Assembly: GCA_004356105.1 (NCBI GenBank)
Contig: SMYC01000026.1
Span: 11,020 to 75,019 of the forward strand
Length of the DNA: 64,000 nt
Source of the DNA: Acidobacteriota bacterium
GTDB taxonomy: Bacteria > Acidobacteriota > Vicinamibacteria > Marinacidobacterales > SMYC01
Direction of reading: 5' to 3'
Shown: positions 58,575 through 64,000 of the stretch, in pieces
Layout: each line of letters starts with the position of its first letter
How positions within the stretch are numbered: the first letter of the stretch is position 1
The notes under the pieces: model-generated
The model's input: the letters and a program-made list of their open reading frames with translations, nothing else
Database searches by the model: none
What the model was told of the DNA's origin: nothing
Position numbers and translations under genes: made by a program

Positions 58575-59753
58575 TCACTCCGCGCTGGCCACCGTCACCG
58601 CAAACGGCACCGACAATGCTTTTTCTAACGTGAAGCGCCTCTCCGCCTTGAACCACGCGCCGGTGCTCGATTGAGCTTCTCTCTCGATCTTGAGCGTATC
58701 GCCGTCACGGGTCACTTCACGGGAGCCGGTCACGGACGCACCACTTCGTCCGGTGATGGTCGTGTCGGTGGTGCGTTGATTCCCTTCGGTCCGTTGCGTC
58801 GAGTCGACGGTGCGGCCGCGCCGGGTCGTGCCACTCACGTTGCCGTCCGGCCGTGAGTAGCGCACCGAGCCGCGTGAGCGGTTCCTCCTCCGCTGGGCAA
58901 GGGAAGGGCGTGAACCAGGCGCTGTTCTCGTACAGGTAGCTTCCCGACTCACGGGTTCGGAATAGCAGGCCCCTGGCGGTGGCCTTGCCGACGGCCACCG
59001 CATCTTCGAGGATTACTTGCATCCACGCATCGGGCTCGAAGGGTTTGCCCTTCTGAATGCCGATGCTGGCGAGAGAGCCCCGCAGCTCTGGGTCGATAAA
59101 GCCTATAGCTCACGATCGATCACCGTATGAAGCTCCTCGTAGAACTGGGAATTATTCGCATGGATGGTATTGAACGCGACCGTGGAGCCGTTGATGAACT
59201 CCATCGCGCGCGGGTTTTGCGCCTGCGATAAAGGATAAACTTTCAGGCTCTCGCGAAACATCTGCGATGCCACGTCAGGCTTACCGTCCACCAGGAAGCC
59301 CCTGAGGATGAGCCAGTTGATGTAAGACGGCGAGCTCGCGGTGAAGTAGCCTTCCGGAACCTCGCCCACGTATCCGAGCGGAAGGATCAGATAATTGCCA
59401 CCTTAACCCTTATCCGGTCCTGGGAAGCCCATGACGAACCGAAAGAACGCATCGTTCACGGTGCCCGGACCGCTTCCAGGCGGGATCTCCACCACGGTCG
59501 GTCCATCGCGGTCTAGATCCAGGACCACCGAGGCGTACACGGTGTCTGTGTTGCCGGTGAGGAAGAGGGGGTTCGAATCCATCAAGCGGTCCAGGAGCAC
59601 GACCTGGTTGGACCGCGTCGCGCCCATCTCCACCATGCCGCGTCGTATGGCCTCGATCGACGAGGCAGGAATGAAATTCAGAAATGCTTCGACCCCGCGC
59701 ATGAAATCCAAGTTGTCATAGACTTTCCACCGTCTCGTCGCTGGGTAGCCCAT
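58575..59753 (-). pseudogene. DUF1254/DUF1214 family protein, fragmented (multiple frameshifts, N-terminus missing)
   Basis: ORF 59403-59753 has the DUF1254 core (GNTDTVYASVVLDLDRDGPTVVEIP). ORFs 59103-59369 and 58717-59022 give the DUF1214 part in different frames. Confidence 0.5.
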
Positions 59754-59962: not shown

Positions 59963-60682
59963 CTACATTGGCTCAAAGGTGGCGACGACCCAAGTGTAAT
60001 AGATGCGCGTCGTGGCCTCGAAGCCCGAATCGGTGCCTACGAAGAGCCACACCGACCCGCTGCCATCGGTCTCAACTTGGAGCGCCTCGAGTCCGCTGGA
60101 TAGTTGCTTCAGCTCCCACCGCCGAGGCTCGCCGCATGGGACCGTGTTCGCCACATCGCCGATAGCGAGGGCGTTCTCGCCACCGTTGGTTTGCATTCCC
60201 TTGGCGACGTTCATGCGCCAGTCCGCGCCGACCATCACGGCTTGAGGCTCGCTTGTGGAGGCGCCGGCCTTGACGGTCACGCCTTCGCCGGGTGCGCCGC
60301 CGACTCCGACGCATCCGTTCTCGACGTTGGTCGCGATCTCGACGTCGAAGCGCACCGCGTAGCGCCGATTGGCGTCCAGCCCCGCCACTTGACCCTTGTA
60401 GTACATCCAAAGGTCGTCGCTGTGGTTGTTCCCCGAAATGTATTGAGCGTTCTGGGATGTATTCAAGGGCGCGCGCAGGGCGCGATAATCCGCTTCGAGC
60501 TCGAAGAAGGCTTCCTCGCCGATGGGATAATCCGCGAAGCCGCCAACCCAACCTTGGGTGCTCTGCGTGAAGTCGATGCGCACCGTGTGAGGGTCATCGT
60601 TTTTGCAGCCTGCGAGGAGTGTAAGAAGAGACAGACAAAAGGGCCAGCCATGTAACACCATTGAGTAGAACCTACCGACCAT
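59963..60682 (-). CDS. hypothetical lipoprotein
   Basis: Lipobox LLTLLAGCKND. About 230 aa. No known domain. Confidence 0.45.
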   Translation of the reverse strand: MVGRFYSMVLHGWPFCLSLLTLLAGCKNDDPHTVRIDFTQSTQGWVGGFADYPIGEEAFFELEADYRALRAPLNTSQNAQYISGNNHSDDLWMYYKGQVAGLDANRRYAVRFDVEIATNVENGCVGVGGAPGEGVTVKAGASTSEPQAVMVGADWRMNVAKGMQTNGGENALAIGDVANTVPCGEPRRWELKQLSSGLEALQVETDGSGSVWLFVGTDSGFEATTRIYYTWVVATFEPM

Positions 60683-60688
60683 GACGAA

Positions 60689-61477
60689 CTACTTCGGGAA
60701 AAGAAATTGCAGCTGGAGTCTGAGCTGCCACTCGGGTCCGAAATCTGGTTTCACAACGTTTGCATAGGCACTGACTTGTGCGTTCAACGGTTGATTCCCA
60801 ACCCTGAAAATCTTGCCCACACCACCACCAAATGGCACCGTCCACCGGTTATCACTATCCGCTTCCCAATTGGCTGTGATGATGGGCGCGAATGTCAGGT
60901 ACCATCCTCCCGGCATGTTGTAGTTAACAAAATACTGCCACGTAAAAACGTTGACATCATTGTCACCTGAGCCCGCAACCGACCATACATTGCTGAACAA
61001 CGAGCCGATAACCCAAGGGCCGCGCATGGTCAGGAGAACCGTCGATGGACCCACTCCCCACTTGTTCGACCCGAGTGCGTCGTCTGTTGCCGTAGGAAAA
61101 AGGAGTACCGGACCGGCGCCCCAAATAATCTTCCCCGCTTTCTTGGGCGACATAAATGCGCTGAATGTCGTGTCCCCCAGTCCGGTGGCCCGATCCGGCT
61201 CAGCGGTCAGGGGAGGTTGTGAGGTCACCGGCACAATCGTGCGGGTAACGAGATTCCAGTTTTCGCCTAGCGAGAGGGGCCAAACGGGCTGGATATTGAG
61301 AATGTTCTGGGTTTCGTCGGCCGGGCCAAAGTTGAAGTTGGTGTTGTTTTGAAAGGGAAGGCTGATTAGATCGCTAATCGGGTTTTGTGAGGCCTTGGCG
61401 AGGTCTTCCTGGCTGTAGACCAGACTCGTCACCGAGACCAGGAATACCAACAGTGAGGCGATAGTGATTCTTTGCAT
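60689..61477 (-). CDS. outer-membrane beta-barrel protein (resembles the MetA-pathway/phenol-degradation-like OMP transporter family)
   Basis: Signal peptide. Alternating amphipathic beta strands rich in G/N/W/Y. Terminal ...LQFLFPK aromatic-rich C-terminus. The family assignment is tentative. Confidence 0.5.
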   Translation of the reverse strand: MQRITIASLLVFLVSVTSLVYSQEDLAKASQNPISDLISLPFQNNTNFNFGPADETQNILNIQPVWPLSLGENWNLVTRTIVPVTSQPPLTAEPDRATGLGDTTFSAFMSPKKAGKIIWGAGPVLLFPTATDDALGSNKWGVGPSTVLLTMRGPWVIGSLFSNVWSVAGSGDNDVNVFTWQYFVNYNMPGGWYLTFAPIITANWEADSDNRWTVPFGGGVGKIFRVGNQPLNAQVSAYANVVKPDFGPEWQLRLQLQFLFPK

Positions 61478-61772
61478 TTCCTACTTTACTTCTTTCACTT
61501 CACGGGGATCACGCTGCTTCCCCGAGCAAAAAAGAAGGATGCGTTGAGCCAGTGGCTTCTCACGCTCGAGCAGGACTACGCGGAGCGCATCCGGCCGGTC
61601 GACACAGAGACCGCACGAGTCCGGGGCTCGCAGTGAAGCTGCCACCAGCGGCCGTTGACGTAGGGACGCACCGATGTGGGCGTGATTGTGCCATTGATAC
61701 TTTCGACACAGAGCATAGACTCTGTACCCGAGTACCAGGTCAACCAACCTTTAGGCTAGAATTGCAGCGATC

Positions 61773-62210
61773 ATGGGACAAAAGGAGCGCTTTCTAGCCG
61801 GAGAGCTGGCCGCTCGAGTAGGGGTCAACCGCGAGACGCTGCGCTATTACGAGCGCCGCGGGCTTTTGAAACCGGCACGCCGCACCGCGGCCGGCTATCG
61901 AATCTACGATGAGGAATCGGCGGCTCGGCTGCTCTTTATCAAACGAGCGCAAGGGTTCGGGTTCTCGCTGGAGGAAATCCGCGGCCTACTCAGGATGAAA
62001 CCTGCGAGTCCTCGGAGCTGCACACGGGTCATGAAGATGCTCGACAGCAAGCTCGAAGAGCTCGCCGCGAAGATGCAGGAAATGGCGCACTTCCACCGGC
62101 AACTTACGGGATATCGGAAACAGTGCGACGAGGCTTTGGCTGAAGGTGAGTGCTGTCCGGTCATCGTTTCGGTCGGCCGCTCCAGCGAATCGGAGCCTGA
62201 TAAAAACTGA
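61773..62210 (+). CDS. merR: MerR-family metal-responsive regulator, Hg(II)-type
   Basis: N-terminal HTH (LAGELAARVGVNRETLRYYERRGLL). Cys at positions 83, 118 and 127/128 reproduce the Cys82/Cys117/Cys126 spacing of Tn501 MerR. Confidence 0.75.
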   Translation: MGQKERFLAGELAARVGVNRETLRYYERRGLLKPARRTAAGYRIYDEESAARLLFIKRAQGFGFSLEEIRGLLRMKPASPRSCTRVMKMLDSKLEELAAKMQEMAHFHRQLTGYRKQCDEALAEGECCPVIVSVGRSSESEPDKN

Positions 62211-62274
62211 CGATTGGGACTTGACCCGGTAGGCGGGTACAGGGTGTATATTAGGATGCGGAGTTAGAGAAACC

Positions 62275-62937
62275 ATGAGCTCAGAAGAAATCAGCAAAGC
62301 ATCCCCAGGAGGCGACGCCAGTTGTTGCGAGGTCGGCGCCGAACCGAAATCGCGCGCGGGCACCCTGGGGGCGGTTTCCGCGGCGTTCGCGTCCGTATGC
62401 TGTGGCCTTCCCCTTTTGTTGATTGCCTTCGGGCTGGGCGGGCTGGGTTTCGGAAGTGTCCTCGGGAAGTATCACTGGTATTTCACCGGCGTGGGCATCG
62501 TGCTTCTCACCGCCGCGTGGTTCGTTTTCTTGAGAGAGCAGTCCCGGCTGCGAGCCGCGGGTTCCGAGATACGAAACGCGCGCCTCACACCGGTCCTTCT
62601 CGGTATCGCGACGGTTGCGGTTCTCGGATTCGGTGCGCTCAACGTTTCGAGCGCTCTTGGGCTCGGGTCGAAAGCCCGAGAGGTTGCCCAGGCCGCGTCG
62701 AGCTCATCCGGCGAGATGGCGCAAGTCGTCCTGTCCGTTGAGGGCATGACTTGCGTCACGTGCGAGTGGGGTATCGAGAAAGCCCTCGGGAAGCTCAACG
62801 GCGTGATCGAAGCGAAAGCGAGCTCCTCGGAACATAAGGTTCTCGTGCGCTATGAGCCGGGGGAAGTGACCTTCGAACAAATGATTGAAGCGGTGGACTC
62901 CACAGGATACAAGGCCTCGATGCCGAACCCGTCGTAG
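62275..62937 (+). CDS. merT: MerT-like membrane transporter fused to a C-terminal MerP-like HMA domain
   Basis: TM1 carries the vicinal Cys pair (ASVCCGLPLLLIAFG) like MerT ACCLGPLVL. The C-terminus is VLSVEGMTCVTCEWGIEKALGKLNGV (HMA, GMTCxxC). Confidence 0.65.
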   Translation: MSSEEISKASPGGDASCCEVGAEPKSRAGTLGAVSAAFASVCCGLPLLLIAFGLGGLGFGSVLGKYHWYFTGVGIVLLTAAWFVFLREQSRLRAAGSEIRNARLTPVLLGIATVAVLGFGALNVSSALGLGSKAREVAQAASSSSGEMAQVVLSVEGMTCVTCEWGIEKALGKLNGVIEAKASSSEHKVLVRYEPGEVTFEQMIEAVDSTGYKASMPNPS

Positions 62938-62951
62938 AACCGTAGACAACG

Positions 62952-63464
62952 ATGAGCGATTGCTGCAGGACAGCCGAACCTTCGGCCGCCGCGAACGACC
63001 GATGCCAGCGCTGCGGTGAGAAAGGACGCAGGGTACTCCGCGAGACCATGGAGAGTCTGTTGAAGCCGGAAGCTCTCGAGCGTTTCGCGGACGAGCCCTA
63101 TTTTTTTGACCGCACCCCCTCATGCGACGTCGTCTACTTCTCCAATGAAGCCCAGTCCTATTTCGACAAGGACGAGCTTTCCGTGCGCGTAGGCTTGAAA
63201 GAGACAGAGTCTCCCATCGCGCTGTGCTACTGTTTTGGCCATACTGCGGAGTCTGTCCGCGAGGAAATCGTGGCCAAAGGTCGCTCGACCACTGCCGAGA
63301 GGATCACGGCAGAGGTCCAGGCGGGGAACTGTTCCTGCGAGACGAAAAATCCGTCGGGCAAGTGCTGCCTCGGCGAAGTGTATGGGGCGGTCCAACGGAT
63401 CCAGAAAGAGCTATCGCCGGAAGAGCTGCAGGAAGAGCCCGTGACTCTAATGGAGAGAGGATAA
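62952..63464 (+). CDS. Cys-rich putative metal/FeS-binding protein
   Basis: MSDCCRTA...CQRCGEKG at the N-terminus. ALCYCFGHTAESVREEI...AGNCSCETKNPSGKCCLGEV resembles a BFD-like [2Fe-2S] CxC...CxxC arrangement. Family unknown. Confidence 0.45.
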   Translation: MSDCCRTAEPSAAANDRCQRCGEKGRRVLRETMESLLKPEALERFADEPYFFDRTPSCDVVYFSNEAQSYFDKDELSVRVGLKETESPIALCYCFGHTAESVREEIVAKGRSTTAERITAEVQAGNCSCETKNPSGKCCLGEVYGAVQRIQKELSPEELQEEPVTLMERG

Positions 63465-63470
63465 GAATTA

Positions 63471-63767
63471 ATGATAAAAAAGAGCGTTCTCTTGTTCTTG
63501 GTAACGCTTGTAGCGTTCTCCATGAGTCTCGCGTTCGGGGCCGAGGGGCCCAAGGAGGTCGAGCTCGAAATCAGCGGCATGACGTGAACCGGCTGCGCCG
63601 CGGCGGTCAAAGCCGCGCTCGAGAAAGTAGAAGGCTGCGAAGAAGCGAAGGCTGATTGGGAAAAGGGCTTAGCCTGGGCGAAGTACGATCCCGACAAGAC
63701 CAACCCGGAAGAGCTCGTCAAAGCCGTAAACGAGAACACCGCGTTCGAAGCCAAGCTCCCCTAGCTG
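63471..63767 (+). CDS. merP: periplasmic MerP-like HMA protein with in-frame TGA at the first Cys of the metal-binding motif (candidate selenoprotein or pseudogene)
   Basis: Signal peptide MIKKSVLLFLVTLVAFSMSLAFGA. EVELEISGMT-[TGA]-TGCAAAVKAALEKVEGC continues in frame for 60 more codons to a TAG. The TGA at 63585-63587 replaces the first Cys of GMTCxxC. Confidence 0.5.
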
Positions 63768-63803
63768 GGTAGGTTCGTCGAAGAAGAGCCACAGGCCACA
63801 GGA

Positions 63804-64000
63804 ATGACACGTCTCTCTCTGCTCGTCACCATCGCCATCGCGGTCGCGTTCGGAAGCTCGCCGCTCGAAGCCCATCCGGGCCACAAACATCTCGTGGCCG
63901 CTTCAGCCGTTGCTGCGTCCGGCGCTCGGTCCGCAGTTCCCGGCGGGATAAGCGGCCAGGGGGCCATGCGCTTCCGGGTTCTCTACACGAGCGAGCGACT
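63804..64000 (+). CDS. secreted His-rich protein, 5' partial (continues beyond window)
   Basis: MTRLSLLVTIAIAVAFGSSPLEAHPGHKHL... is a signal peptide. The ORF is open to the window end. Confidence 0.3.
   Translation, partial: MTRLSLLVTIAIAVAFGSSPLEAHPGHKHLVAASAVAASGARSAVPGGISGQGAMRFRVLYTSER

What the first reader, a model, noticed from the sequence alone, without database searches (positions are those of the whole stretch)
60689..64000. Compact mer-like metal resistance locus: OMP - merR - merT::merP fusion - Cys-rich protein - merP(UGA) - secreted His-rich protein, with no merA in view
The MerR has the Hg(II)-type three-Cys spacing and MerT-like vicinal cysteines are present, which argues for mercury or a soft thiophilic metal. 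The gene content departs from canonical operons: a fused MerT-HMA, an extra Cys-rich putative FeS protein, and an outer-membrane beta-barrel encoded divergently. merA is either beyond the window end or absent, in which case the locus would be an uptake/sequestration system rather than a reductive one.
Basis: partly seen in the sequence, partly recalled or inferred. Interest (0 to 1): 0.6.

Follow-up and report, generated by a model that had tools for sequence, protein, structure and literature searches.

The report
Mercury-type operon with selenocysteine MerP
This is a compact, mercury-type metal-handling gene cassette from an acidobacterium whose periplasmic metal-binding protein carries selenocysteine in place of a metal-binding cysteine and which has no mercury reductase gene at the locus, making it an unusual but recognisable variant of the classical mercury-resistance operon.

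Summary
The core is a four-gene cassette: merR, merT-HMA fusion, CopZ-N-terminal-type Zn/[2Fe-2S] protein, and exported MerP-like protein. merR is flanked by two MerR-type operator-promoters.

The in-frame TGA in merP (63585-63587) is very probably selenocysteine.
- It replaces the first Cys of GMT-C-x-x-C.
- It is TGA in all 33 orthologous loci recovered.
- A hairpin downstream meets all four published bacterial SECIS criteria, and its codons show almost no synonymous change.
- merR in the same operon ends with TGA, so the code is not reassigned.

Mercury is the best-supported metal. The MerR cysteines align with the Hg ligands of a solved MerR. Close relatives of the cassette carry a divergent merB and a MerA-like reductase directly after merP. 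More distant relatives carry canonical MerA.

The 64-kb window has no reductase homologue. The syntenic slot holds an unrelated secreted protein that is not His-rich.

The outer-membrane gene belongs to a neighbouring chromosomal cluster, not the cassette. A VapC remnant marks the junction.

The four genes are under purifying selection, with dN/dS 0.09-0.30. Selenoprotein MerP and CopZ-N-terminal families are already catalogued. I rate this a new variant of a known kind.

The parts
60689..61477 (-). Outer-membrane beta-barrel-type protein (262 aa). It is a chromosomal neighbour, not a conserved part of the cassette, though it may lie downstream of the leftward MerR-type promoter.
   Evidence: There is no Pfam or NCBIfam hit for the protein itself. 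It has more than 7800 homologues at 65-99% identity, named 'transporter' or 'neuromedin U', and a few carry PF13557 Phenol_MetA_deg. In L166 it is syntenic with the 239-aa and DUF1254/DUF1214 genes and there are no mer genes.
61505..61651 (+). Remnant of a VapC/PIN toxin gene, marking the left edge of the acquired segment.
   Evidence: tblastn gives 73% identity to residues 47-95 of the 140-aa PIN protein that precedes merR in L003. That protein matches VapC models.
61712..61743 (-). Operator/promoter O1: TTGACC, 20-nt spacer, TATGCT, with a GTAC-N4-GTAC dyad. It faces away from merR.
   Evidence: It is one of only two matches in the window to the operator pattern, against 0.01 expected by chance. 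The site is conserved upstream of merR in L003, L004, L005 and L011, and in L004 and L005 it faces merB.
61773..62210 (+). MerR-family metal sensor (145 aa) with C83, C118 and C127/C128. The gene ends with TGA.
   Evidence: Pfam gives MerR_1 and MerR-DNA-bind. The best NCBIfam match is TIGR02051 MerR at 113.6 bits, below the cut-off of 150.85. The best PDB match is Hg-MerR 4UA1 at E = 1.8e-23, with the three ligand cysteines aligned.
62221..62252 (+). Operator/promoter O2: TTGACC, 20-nt spacer, TATATT, with dyad ACCCgGTA-N6-TACAGGGT. It drives merTP-copZnt-merP.
   Evidence: Found. It is conserved in L003-L006, and in L003 it is a perfect 9-bp inverted repeat with a 4-nt centre. It forms a 29-nt inverted pair with O1.
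62275..62937 (+). MerT-like three-helix inner-membrane protein fused to a C-terminal, periplasm-facing HMA domain (GMTCVTC). It has an N-terminal cytosolic CC pair and a TM1 CC pair.
   Evidence: Pfam HMA scores 51 bits. Pfam MerT scores 25.8 bits, below the gathering score of 32.9. NF033556 MerTP_fusion scores 84 bits, below the cut-off of 180. Topology is inferred from the Arg-rich TM2-TM3 loop.
62952..63464 (+). Cytoplasmic CopZ-N-terminal-type Zn/[2Fe-2S] protein (170 aa) with conserved N-terminal CC and a C138-C139 pair.
   Evidence: NF047645 CopZ_Nterm_CC scores 131 bits, above the cut-off of 100. Pfam gives zf_CopZ. PDB 2HU9 matches at E = 7.5e-16 by sequence and is the only fold match, with TM 0.73. 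Sixteen columns are invariant, including C58, C92, C94, C127, C129, C138 and C139.
63471..63764 (+). Exported MerP-like HMA protein (97 aa) with metal site GMT-U-T-G-C. The Sec codon TGA is at 63585-63587.
   Evidence: The HMA match spans the TGA. The codon is TGA in 33 of 33 orthologous loci, 27 of them unique. All 32 database hits are post-UGA fragments and none is a full-length Cys orthologue. dN/dS against L003 is 0.09.
63599..63617 (+). SECIS-like hairpin CGCGGC/GGUCAAA/GCCGCG, starting 11 nt after the UGA.
   Evidence: Its free energy is -11.2 to -11.9 kcal/mol. It meets the four published bSECIS criteria (PMC13188914). Codons +4 to +10 have mean synonymous entropy 0.03 bit, against 0.61 for the gene; only 0.27% of shuffles give a run as low.
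63804..64000 (+). 5' part of a secreted protein of unknown family: signal peptide, then HPGHKH. It occupies the position where relatives carry the reductase gene.
   Evidence: A full-length 371-aa homologue (L087:1493-2608) has no Pfam or NCBIfam family and only a weak NHL-like match. It is linked to merP only in the window, L011 and L087.

Best explanation
The locus is an acquired, MerR-controlled Hg(II)-type trafficking cassette. It lies in a marine acidobacterium of class Vicinamibacteria, close to Candidatus Marinacidobacterales.

Proposed mechanism (inferred unless stated):
- MerR binds two near-identical operators that flank its own gene.
- With metal bound, it activates the 20-bp-spacer promoter O2 and so drives merTP-copZnt-merP.
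- It also activates the leftward promoter O1. In relatives O1 drives merB. Here it now faces a VapC remnant and the OMP gene.
- The exported MerP is a selenoprotein. A SECIS hairpin 11 nt downstream recodes the UGA, giving a Sec-x-x-Cys site that should capture Hg(II), or organomercury, more tightly and faster than a Cys-x-x-Cys site.
- The metal is passed to the tethered periplasmic HMA domain of MerTP and through the vicinal cysteines of TM1 to the N-terminal cytosolic CC pair.
- It then reaches the cytoplasmic CopZ-N-terminal-type [2Fe-2S]/Zn protein, whose CC motifs are the sites that are Sec in sister families.
- In most close relatives the metal would next reach a MerA-like flavoprotein encoded immediately downstream. 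This lineage lacks that gene at the locus. Here the cassette either feeds a reductase encoded elsewhere or ends in binding, and possibly redox chemistry, on the FeS protein.

Shown: gene identities, the UGA and hairpin conservation, the operators, the comparative contexts, and purifying selection.

Inferred: the metal, the direction of transfer, Sec insertion in vivo, and the fate of the metal.
For: Selenocysteine reading:
- The codon is TGA in 33 of 33 orthologues, and the sequence after it is conserved at the amino-acid level while varying synonymously.
- No Cys orthologue appears among the 32 protein hits.
- The hairpin has a 6-bp stem and a 7-nt loop GGUCAAA, lies 17 nt from the UGA to the loop, and folds at -11.9 kcal/mol. 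These fit the bSECIS criteria quoted.
- Synonymous variation is suppressed in the hairpin codons; 0.27% of shuffles match it.
- merR uses TGA as its stop codon.
- Independent Sec-HMA genes lie next to CopZnt/MerT cassettes in three other phyla.
- A MerP selenoprotein is listed in PMC2398784.

Mercury as the metal:
- The MerR ligand cysteines align with Hg-MerR 4UA1.
- The operators occur exactly twice in the window, against 0.01 expected by chance.
- merB is adjacent in L004, L005, L092, L097, L100, L109 and L110.
- The reductase is adjacent in 14 of 27 close loci.
- Canonical MerA lies next to CopZnt homologues in L032, L036, L041, L050 and L072.

Function is retained without the reductase: dN/dS against L003 is 0.09-0.30 for all four genes.
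Against: - No curated equivalog cut-off is reached for MerR, MerT, MerTP or MerP.
- ZntR and CadR/PbrR models score close to MerR, at 106 and 99 bits against 114. PbrR and CadR use a similar Cys triad; that point is from memory.
- Distant CopZnt homologues sit with P-type ATPases or a multicopper oxidase, and the only characterised relative is a copper chaperone.
- No reductase gene is present in the window.
- The selenocysteine machinery (selA, selB, selC, selD) could not be checked for this organism. No tRNA gene lies in the window.
- The hairpin stem is invariant, so there is no compensatory covariation.
- The whole-region fold is not more stable than shuffles, with z = 0.74.
- Rfam reports nothing there.
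- An IS-riddled copy in L011 shows that the cassette can decay.
Confidence: 0.6

Rival explanations
1. The cassette handles another soft metal (Cu(I)/Ag(I), or Zn/Cd/Pb(II)) rather than mercury. On this reading it is a CopZ-type chaperone system with a MerT-like channel and a divalent-metal MerR-family sensor.
For: - The FeS protein's only solved relative is the A. fulgidus copper chaperone domain.
- Both HMA domains score as well against CopZ models as against MerP.
- The ZntR and CadR/PbrR models score within 15 bits of MerR, and PbrR-like and CadR structures are the second and third PDB hits.
- Distant homologues of the FeS protein lie beside P-type ATPases and a multicopper oxidase.
Against: - The top family and structure hits are Hg-MerR.
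- Cys, not Ser, sits at the start of the dimerisation helix. This argues against a +1 ion sensor of CueR type; the rule is from memory of Changela et al. 2003.
- merB, which acts only on organomercurials, is the divergent partner of the same operator in several orthologous loci.
- Canonical MerA follows CopZnt homologues in other phyla.
- There is no efflux ATPase, CusF or multicopper oxidase in this locus.
Confidence: 0.2
2. The locus is a decaying remnant of a fuller mer operon (merB, merR, merTP, copZnt, merP, reductase). It has lost both enzymes and no longer has a selected function.
For: - Close relatives carry merB and the reductase, and the window has neither.
- A VapC remnant and a decayed DUF1254/DUF1214 gene flank the locus.
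- The nearest genome copy, L011, is broken by several insertion sequences.
- Integrases follow the cassette in L003.
Against: - All four genes are intact.
- dN/dS against L003, which also has no reductase, is 0.09-0.30.
- Both operators are intact and conserved.
- The UGA and its hairpin are unchanged.
Confidence: 0.15
3. The TGA in merP is an ordinary stop codon, so merP is a pseudogene or encodes only a 38-residue peptide.
For: - Gene callers truncate the ORF at 38-41 aa in every public contig.
- TGA is used as a stop codon by merR.
- Rfam reports no SECIS family here.
Against: - The TGA sits exactly at the first metal-binding Cys of the HMA motif.
- The 59 codons after it keep their amino acids while varying synonymously across 27 unique sequences.
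- There is no in-frame start codon after the TGA in the window.
- A hairpin fitting the SECIS model follows the TGA at the canonical distance.
Confidence: 0.03

Closest known systems
Tn21/Tn501-type mer operon (merR, merT, merP, merA, with or without merB)
   Same: - A MerR sensor with three ligand cysteines.
- An operator dyad with a GTAC-N4-GTAC core inside a long-spacer promoter.
- A MerT-like channel with vicinal TM1 cysteines.
- An exported HMA protein.
- merB and reductase genes in orthologous cassettes.
   Different: - merR is co-directional with the transport genes and is flanked by two operators.
- MerT is fused to an HMA domain. It lacks the cytoplasmic-loop Cys pair and has an N-terminal CC instead.
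- MerP has Sec in place of the first Cys.
- An extra [2Fe-2S]/Zn protein is present.
- There is no merA in this locus. Close relatives carry a MerA-like enzyme without the C-terminal Cys pair.
Selenoprotein MerP and HMA-domain selenoproteins: 'Mercuric transport protein MerP' in the GOS selenoproteome (PMC2398784); NCBIfam NF041115 UxxU metal-binding (seleno)protein; UxxC cation-transporting ATPase
   Same: - Sec replaces a Cys of the HMA CxxC metal site.
- The evidence is an in-frame UGA plus a downstream hairpin.
- No family member has been characterised experimentally.
   Different: - The motif here is U-x-x-C, not U-x-x-U.
- The score against NF041115 is 64.7, below the cut-off of 95.
- This clade is from Acidobacteriota and is embedded in a defined four-gene operon.
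- I could not compare it with the two GOS sequences.
Archaeoglobus fulgidus CopZ N-terminal domain (PDB 2HU9) and NCBIfam NF047645 CopZ_Nterm_CC / NF045877 CopZ_Nterm_CU
   Same: - The fold is the same.
- The Zn-site and [2Fe-2S]-site cysteines are conserved.
- The protein scores above the NF047645 cut-off.
   Different: - It is a stand-alone protein, not fused to an HMA domain.
- It has an additional conserved N-terminal CC.
- It is encoded between MerT-HMA and MerP under a MerR operator, not beside a Cu-ATPase.
MerTP fusion of Gram-positive mer operons (NCBIfam NF033556)
   Same: A MerT-like membrane part is followed by an HMA domain, and the match runs end to end (profile positions 2-185 of 186).
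   Different: The score is 84 bits against a cut-off of 180. The Cys arrangement differs. The host is a diderm acidobacterium that also encodes a separate soluble MerP.

Membership tests
Bacterial selenoprotein gene (bSECIS consensus as quoted in PMC13188914) | In-frame UGA at a position where homologues have Cys, with a conserved ORF on both sides. | tested here: met
   The UGA corresponds to the first Cys of the HMA GMTCxxC motif. Amino acids are conserved before and after it in 27 unique sequences.
Bacterial selenoprotein gene (bSECIS consensus as quoted in PMC13188914) | [quoted passage not shown] | tested here: met
   The stem is 6 bp, the loop is GGUCAAA (7 nt), the UGA-to-loop distance is 17 nt, and the free energy is -11.2 to -11.9 kcal/mol.
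Bacterial selenoprotein gene (bSECIS consensus as quoted in PMC13188914) | Compensatory base changes supporting the hairpin. | tested here: inconclusive
   The stem is invariant in all 33 sequences, so there is no covariation. Synonymous sites in it are frozen instead.
Bacterial selenoprotein gene (bSECIS consensus as quoted in PMC13188914) | selA, selB, selC and selD present in the same genome. | not testable with these tools
   Only a 64-kb window is available. It holds no tRNA gene and no Sec genes among the ORFs scanned.
Hg(II)-responsive MerR (TIGR02051) | Score above the curated equivalog cut-off. | tested here: not met
   The score is 113.6 bits against a cut-off of 150.85. It is still the best-scoring model.
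Hg(II)-responsive MerR (TIGR02051) | Three metal-ligand cysteines (C79/C114/C123 in B. megaterium MerR). | tested here: met
   C83, C118 and C128 align to them in the phmmer alignment with 4UA1.
Hg(II)-responsive MerR (TIGR02051) | Dyad operator inside a promoter with a 19-20-bp spacer. | tested here: met
   Both O1 and O2 have a 20-nt spacer and are conserved in relatives.
Hg(II)-responsive MerR (TIGR02051) | Activation by Hg(II). | not testable with these tools
   This needs a reporter assay.
MerT (PF02411) / MerTP fusion (NF033556) | Score above the curated cut-off. | tested here: not met
   PF02411 scores 25.8 against 32.9. NF033556 scores 84.2 against 180.
MerT (PF02411) / MerTP fusion (NF033556) | Vicinal Cys pair in the first transmembrane helix. 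| tested here: met
   'ASVCCGLPLL' is present in the window protein and conserved in L003-L005.
MerT (PF02411) / MerTP fusion (NF033556) | Second Cys pair in the cytoplasmic TM2-TM3 loop. | tested here: not met
   The loop REQSRLRAAGSEIRNAR has no Cys. A conserved N-terminal CC is present instead.
MerP (TIGR02052) | Score above the cut-off, plus a signal peptide and an HMA domain with GMTCxxC. | tested here: not met
   The score is 50.4 bits against 92.55. The signal peptide and HMA fold are present, but the first Cys is encoded by UGA.
UxxU metal-binding (seleno)protein (NF041115) | Score above the cut-off and a U-x-x-U motif. | tested here: not met
   The score is 64.7 bits against 95. The motif is U-T-G-C.
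CopZ N-terminal-type FeS metallochaperone (NF047645; fold of 2HU9) | Score above the cut-off, the same fold, and conserved Zn-site and [2Fe-2S]-site cysteines. | tested here: met
   The score is 131.3 bits against 100. 2HU9 is the only significant fold match. C18, C21, C58, C92, C94, C127, C129, C138 and C139 are invariant or nearly invariant.
Canonical mer operon | MerA with a redox CxxxxC and a C-terminal vicinal Cys pair (criteria quoted in PMC8261052). | tested here: not met
   No homologue occurs in the window. The reductase of close relatives has the CxxxxC but no C-terminal Cys pair.
Phenol_MetA_deg outer-membrane barrel (PF13557) | Pfam match. | tested here: inconclusive
   The window protein has no hit even at E <= 1. 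Two homologues at 67-68% identity carry a precomputed PF13557 hit.

The most novel reading that the evidence does not exclude
The cassette may be the core of a selenium-assisted mercury pathway that does not depend on canonical MerA. It is widespread in uncultured Acidobacteriota and other soil and sediment phyla.
- A Sec-containing periplasmic MerP would scavenge Hg(II) or methylmercury at trace levels.
- A CopZ-N-terminal-type [2Fe-2S] protein would take over the metal-delivery role, and possibly an electron-transfer role. In canonical MerA that delivery role is played by the NmerA domain and the C-terminal Cys pair.
- Where present, the protein would serve a MerA-like flavoprotein that lacks those cysteines.
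- Lineages such as this one, or the merB-only L005 type, would detoxify or retain Hg without any MerA.

This would bear on the open question of how MerB-positive, MerA-negative organisms cope with the Hg(II) they produce.
Probability: 0.2. Interest if true: 0.8.

Novelty: new variant of a known kind. Interest (0 to 1): 0.55.

Why it matters
Mercury resistance is understood almost entirely from Tn21-type operons of cultured Proteobacteria and Firmicutes. This cassette recurs in dozens of metagenomic contigs from Acidobacteriota, with relatives of its FeS protein in many other phyla.

It combines three departures from that model:
- a selenocysteine in the periplasmic metal-binding site;
- a cytoplasmic [2Fe-2S]/Zn protein inserted in the transfer chain;
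- either a non-canonical reductase or none at all.

If Sec is inserted and mercury is the substrate, this would be a natural case of a selenol used to capture a metal with very high selenium affinity. It would also link selenium availability to mercury handling in sediments.

The work gives concrete candidates for the 'alternative Hg(II) mitigation' postulated for MerB-positive, MerA-negative genomes (PMC8261052).

A practical point follows for annotation. Gene callers truncate this MerP to 38-41 residues in every public contig examined, so mer gene surveys will miss it.

Tried and rejected
- **Extending the contig.** The only public contigs carrying these exact proteins are L001 (Logan) and L002 (JGI 3300009030). 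Both stop at window position 63751, before the window end, so merA beyond the end could not be checked directly.
- **Rfam.** A permissive scan of 60000-64000 found no SECIS or other relevant family.
- **Whole-region folding.** The 65 nt after the UGA fold no better than shuffles, with z = 0.74. The argument for SECIS therefore rests on the local hairpin, its spacing and the frozen synonymous sites.
- **Covariation.** This was not possible because the stem is invariant.
- **OMP as part of the system.** Rejected on synteny with L166 and on the size of the family. A direct comparison with the Phenol_MetA_deg protein near the L005 cassette showed no similarity.
- **The last ORF as the NHL-repeat protein near L005.** No support was found.
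- **A merB remnant between the OMP gene and merR.** None was found. The remnant there is VapC.
- **The reductase of relatives as canonical MerA.** Rejected. It scores below the MerA cut-off and lacks the C-terminal Cys pair.
- **Genetic-code reassignment of TGA.** Rejected because merR ends in TGA.
- **Sazinsky et al. 2007.** The paper is not held. Statements about Cu(II) reduction by A. fulgidus CopZ and its ligand numbering are from memory.

Full report

Yes. ORF listing and direct reading of the sequence give six ORFs.
- A 262-aa ORF at 60689-61477 (-).
- merR at 61773-62210 (+).
- A 220-aa MerT-HMA fusion at 62275-62937.
- A 170-aa Cys-rich ORF at 62952-63464.
- A 97-codon ORF at 63471-63764 with an in-frame TGA at 63585-63587.
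- An ORF from 63804 that runs off the window.

Pfam and NCBIfam assign them as follows.
- **Regulator:** MerR_1 and MerR-DNA-bind. The best NCBIfam model is Hg-MerR TIGR02051 at 113.6 bits, with ZntR at 106, CadR/PbrR at 99 and CueR at 83. All are below their cut-offs.
- **Transporter:** an HMA domain plus a sub-threshold MerT match. MerTP_fusion NF033556 scores 84 bits against a cut-off of 180.
- **Cys-rich protein:** zf_CopZ, and NF047645 CopZ_Nterm_CC at 131 bits against a cut-off of 100.
- **TGA-containing ORF:** an HMA match that runs straight across the TGA.
- **First and last ORFs:** no family.

No tRNA gene lies in the window. The rest of the window encodes ordinary chromosomal genes, including aminotransferase, amidases, peptidases, FeoB and a CHASE3 histidine kinase.

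**2. The UGA is best read as selenocysteine.**

The TGA replaces the first Cys of the HMA motif, giving GMT-U-T-G-C. I recovered orthologous loci from protein look-ups, a genome scan and a metagenome scan.

- All 33 loci, 27 of them unique over 201 nt, have TGA at this codon. The residues between it and the Cys vary (TG, AS, AG, TS, VS, GG).
- The protein database holds 32 clusters related to this MerP. Every one is a fragment that begins after the UGA, and none is a full-length Cys form.
- After the UGA the amino acids are conserved while third positions vary freely, so the region is translated. The window has no in-frame start codon after the UGA.
- merR in the same operon ends in TGA, so the code is not reassigned.

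Eleven nucleotides after the UGA lies the hairpin CGCGGC-GGUCAAA-GCCGCG (63599-63617), with a free energy of -11.2 to -11.9 kcal/mol. A 2026 review quotes four criteria for bacterial SECIS elements (PMC13188914).
- An upper stem of 4-16 bp.
- A distance of 16-37 nt from the UGA to the loop.
- A free energy of -7.5 kcal/mol or lower.

All four are met.

The stem never varies, so covariation cannot be scored. Instead the seven codons that form the hairpin have a mean synonymous entropy of 0.03 bit, against 0.61 for the gene. Only 0.27% of shuffles give any seven-codon run that low. Where the encoded residues differ (KAA, RRA, RAA), the same stem is still formed.

Independent Sec-HMA genes with their own hairpins lie near CopZnt/MerT cassettes in a Fervidibacter, a Latescibacterota and a Planctomycetota MAG.

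Sec-containing MerP, MerT-like and CopZ-N-terminal-like proteins are already listed as predicted selenoprotein families (PMC2398784; bioRxiv 10.1101/2022.07.06.499078; PMC13188914).

Weak points remain.
- Rfam finds nothing here.
- The wider 65-nt region folds no better than shuffles.
- The Sec machinery of this organism could not be examined.

**3. What the cassette is.**

The order merR, merTP, copZnt, merP(U) is conserved, at 61-94% protein identity, in three looked-up contigs. It is also conserved in a Vicinamibacteria MAG, a Candidatus Marinacidobacterales chromosome (taxonomy) and 27 metagenome contigs.

In these close relatives two further genes recur.
- **A divergently transcribed merB.** It scores 187-188 bits against alkylmercury lyase NF009710, just under the cut-off of 193. 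It is present in L004, L005, L092, L097, L100, L109 and L110.
- **A 449-451-aa flavoprotein directly after merP.** It is present in 14 of 27 close metagenome loci.

The flavoprotein has the redox motif GGTCA[LV]RGCDPKK. It has a Tyr where glutathione reductase has its catalytic His, and this Tyr aligns with the MerA Tyr. It has no C-terminal Cys pair. It scores equally against glutathione reductase and MerA models, below both cut-offs. It therefore fails the field's MerA definition as quoted in PMC8261052.

More distant homologues of the FeS protein (40-55% identity) come from Nitrospira, Myxococcota and others.
- 44 of 80 genome loci have a MerR homologue within 3 kb.
- 59 of 80 have a MerT or HMA gene within 3 kb.
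- 5 of 80 have canonical core MerA ending in SCCA. One of these scores 560 bits against a cut-off of 454.

Still more distant plasmid-borne homologues (33-38% identity) lie with a P-type ATPase or a multicopper oxidase. The protein family as a whole is therefore not restricted to mercury.

**4. The regulator and its sites.**

The regulator's best solved relative is the Hg-bound MerR of Bacillus megaterium (4UA1, E = 1.8e-23). A PbrR-like protein, CadR, Tn501 MerR and CueR rank behind it. C83, C118 and C128 align with the three Hg ligands.

A 25-nt operator-promoter pattern occurs exactly twice in the 64-kb window, against 0.01 expected by chance.
- **O2 (62221-62252, + strand).** It lies between merR and merTP and reads TTGACC, 20 nt, TATATT.
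- **O1 (61712-61743, - strand).** It lies upstream of merR, faces left, and reads TTGACC, 20 nt, TATGCT.

Both carry a GTAC-N4-GTAC-centred dyad, which is a perfect 9-4-9 palindrome in L003. Both are conserved in relatives. As I recall the Tn21/Tn501 merO sequence, its core is the same.

In L004 and L005, O1 faces merB. In the window it faces a 147-nt remnant of a VapC gene and then the OMP gene.

**5. What is not part of it.**

The OMP gene belongs to a family with more than 7800 database relatives at 65% identity or more, from many phyla. They are annotated 'transporter' or, wrongly, 'neuromedin U', and a few have a Phenol_MetA_deg hit.

In the contig holding its closest long-contig relative (83% identity), it is followed by the same lipoprotein and DUF1254/DUF1214 genes as in the window, and no mer genes are nearby. 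It is a chromosomal neighbour of an inserted segment.

The last ORF has a 371-aa homologue in L087 with no known family and ordinary His content. It is linked to merP only in the window, L011 and L087.

In L011 the locus is broken by several insertion sequences. In L003 it is followed by three integrase genes. L001 and L002 both end at window position 63751. In L087 and L011 a Uma2 gene is inserted there with a duplicated merP 3' end. The region is mobile and heterogeneous between strains.

**6. How it most likely works.**

The proteins have the following properties.
- **MerTP.** The Arg-rich TM2-TM3 loop places the N-terminus in the cytoplasm and the C-terminal HMA domain in the periplasm. 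This topology is inferred.
- **MerP.** It has a standard signal peptide.
- **The FeS protein.** It has no signal peptide. Its model has mean pLDDT 80.6, and its only structural relative is A. fulgidus CopZ-NT. It keeps the Zn-site and [2Fe-2S]-site cysteines and adds a conserved N-terminal CC. The C138-C139 pair is the position that is Sec in the 'GxUC' and 'CU' sister families.

The simplest chain of transfer is therefore:
1. MerP(Sec-x-x-Cys).
2. The tethered HMA domain of MerTP.
3. The TM1 CC pair.
4. The N-terminal CC pair.
5. The FeS protein.
6. The reductase, where one is present.

The window and L003 both lack merB and the reductase. Even so, all four genes show dN/dS of 0.09-0.30 between them, so the short form is maintained by selection.

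I cannot decide whether it feeds a reductase encoded elsewhere or ends in sequestration or chemistry on the FeS protein. In Tn21 systems, transport genes without merA cause Hg hypersensitivity; this is established knowledge recalled from memory. A pure importer with no cytoplasmic sink is therefore unlikely to be kept.

**7. Comparison and verdict.**

The locus works like a mer transport and regulation module. It fails the curated membership thresholds for MerR, MerT, MerTP and MerP, and it lacks MerA. The one family it clearly belongs to is CopZ_Nterm_CC.

Selenoprotein forms of all three metal-handling components are catalogued, but none has been studied experimentally. I found no description of this operon architecture in the searched literature.

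I rate it a new variant of a known kind, with moderate interest (0.55). My confidence is about 0.9 that the UGA encodes Sec and about 0.6 in the whole mechanism with mercury as substrate.

Noticed in passing
L004:10863-12212 (also L091, L096-L099, L101-L103, L105-L107, L007, L014, L015, L062, L063, L069, L072, L075, L076, L081, L085): A conserved 449-451-aa glutathione-reductase/MerA-like flavoprotein lies next to the cassette. It has the motif GGTCA[LV]RGCDPKK and a Tyr in place of the GR catalytic His, aligned to the MerA Tyr. It has no C-terminal Cys pair. It directly follows merP(U) in 14 of 27 close loci and lies next to the FeS protein in 11 of 80 genome loci. It could be a non-canonical Hg(II) reductase that relies on the FeS protein for metal delivery.
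   Followed up: partly
L004:10495-10863, L091, L097, L100, L106, L107: In loci that carry the reductase, the Sec-MerP often has a C-terminal tail ending in ...FRIDxxPCC. This is a Cys-Cys carboxy-terminus on an exported protein. The window's MerP lacks this tail.
   Followed up: no
window 61505-61651 (+): A remnant of a VapC/PIN toxin gene, 73% identical to residues 47-95 of the protein encoded at L003:8259-8681. It lies between the OMP gene and merR and marks the left junction of the acquired segment.
   Followed up: yes
window 58903-59753 (-): The DUF1254/DUF1214 gene is intact (454 aa) in L166. In the window it is broken into frameshifted pieces, so it is probably a pseudogene.
   Followed up: partly
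window 63751; L087:786-1480; L011:10902-11600: Two independent public contigs (Logan SRR6057749, JGI 3300009030) end at exactly window position 63751, 13 nt before the merP stop codon. In L087 and L011 a Uma2-family endonuclease gene is inserted there, flanked by a duplicated merP 3' end. This points to strain-level heterogeneity that breaks assemblies.
   Followed up: partly
L011:5400-16500 (OZ253507.1, Candidatus Marinacidobacterales): The nearest genome copy of the locus is riddled with insertion sequences. One IS lies between a merR 5' part and a merTP 3' end, another lies in the secreted-protein gene at about codon 74, and identical IS256-like transposase genes sit on both sides.
   Followed up: partly
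L016:12761, L031:9756, L077:5751 and L077 minus strand 7371: Other HMA-domain genes with UGA at the metal-site Cys lie near CopZnt/MerT cassettes in Fervidibacter, Latescibacterota and Planctomycetota MAGs. Their motifs are GMT-U-EGC, GMT-U-GGC and two U-x-x-U. Each has its own hairpin 10-16 nt downstream.
   Followed up: partly
L167 (CP036351.1), L168 (NZ_CP033741.1), L169 (NZ_CP085715.1): Plasmids of cultured bacteria carry distant homologues (33-38% identity) of the FeS protein in other metal contexts. One is fused into a 411-aa ORF annotated 'mercuric reductase'. One lies after an ArsR-regulated P-type ATPase. One lies between a PGAP-named Hg(II)-responsive merR and a multicopper oxidase.
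   Followed up: no
L004:8780-8835: A third, different MerR-type promoter lies directly upstream of merR in L004. It reads TTGACC, 20 nt, TATCAT, with the dyad CCTTGGA...TCCAAGG. The same contig also carries a MerR-HMA fusion regulator, a P-type ATPase, CusF and RND efflux genes, so it is a metal-resistance island.
   Followed up: no
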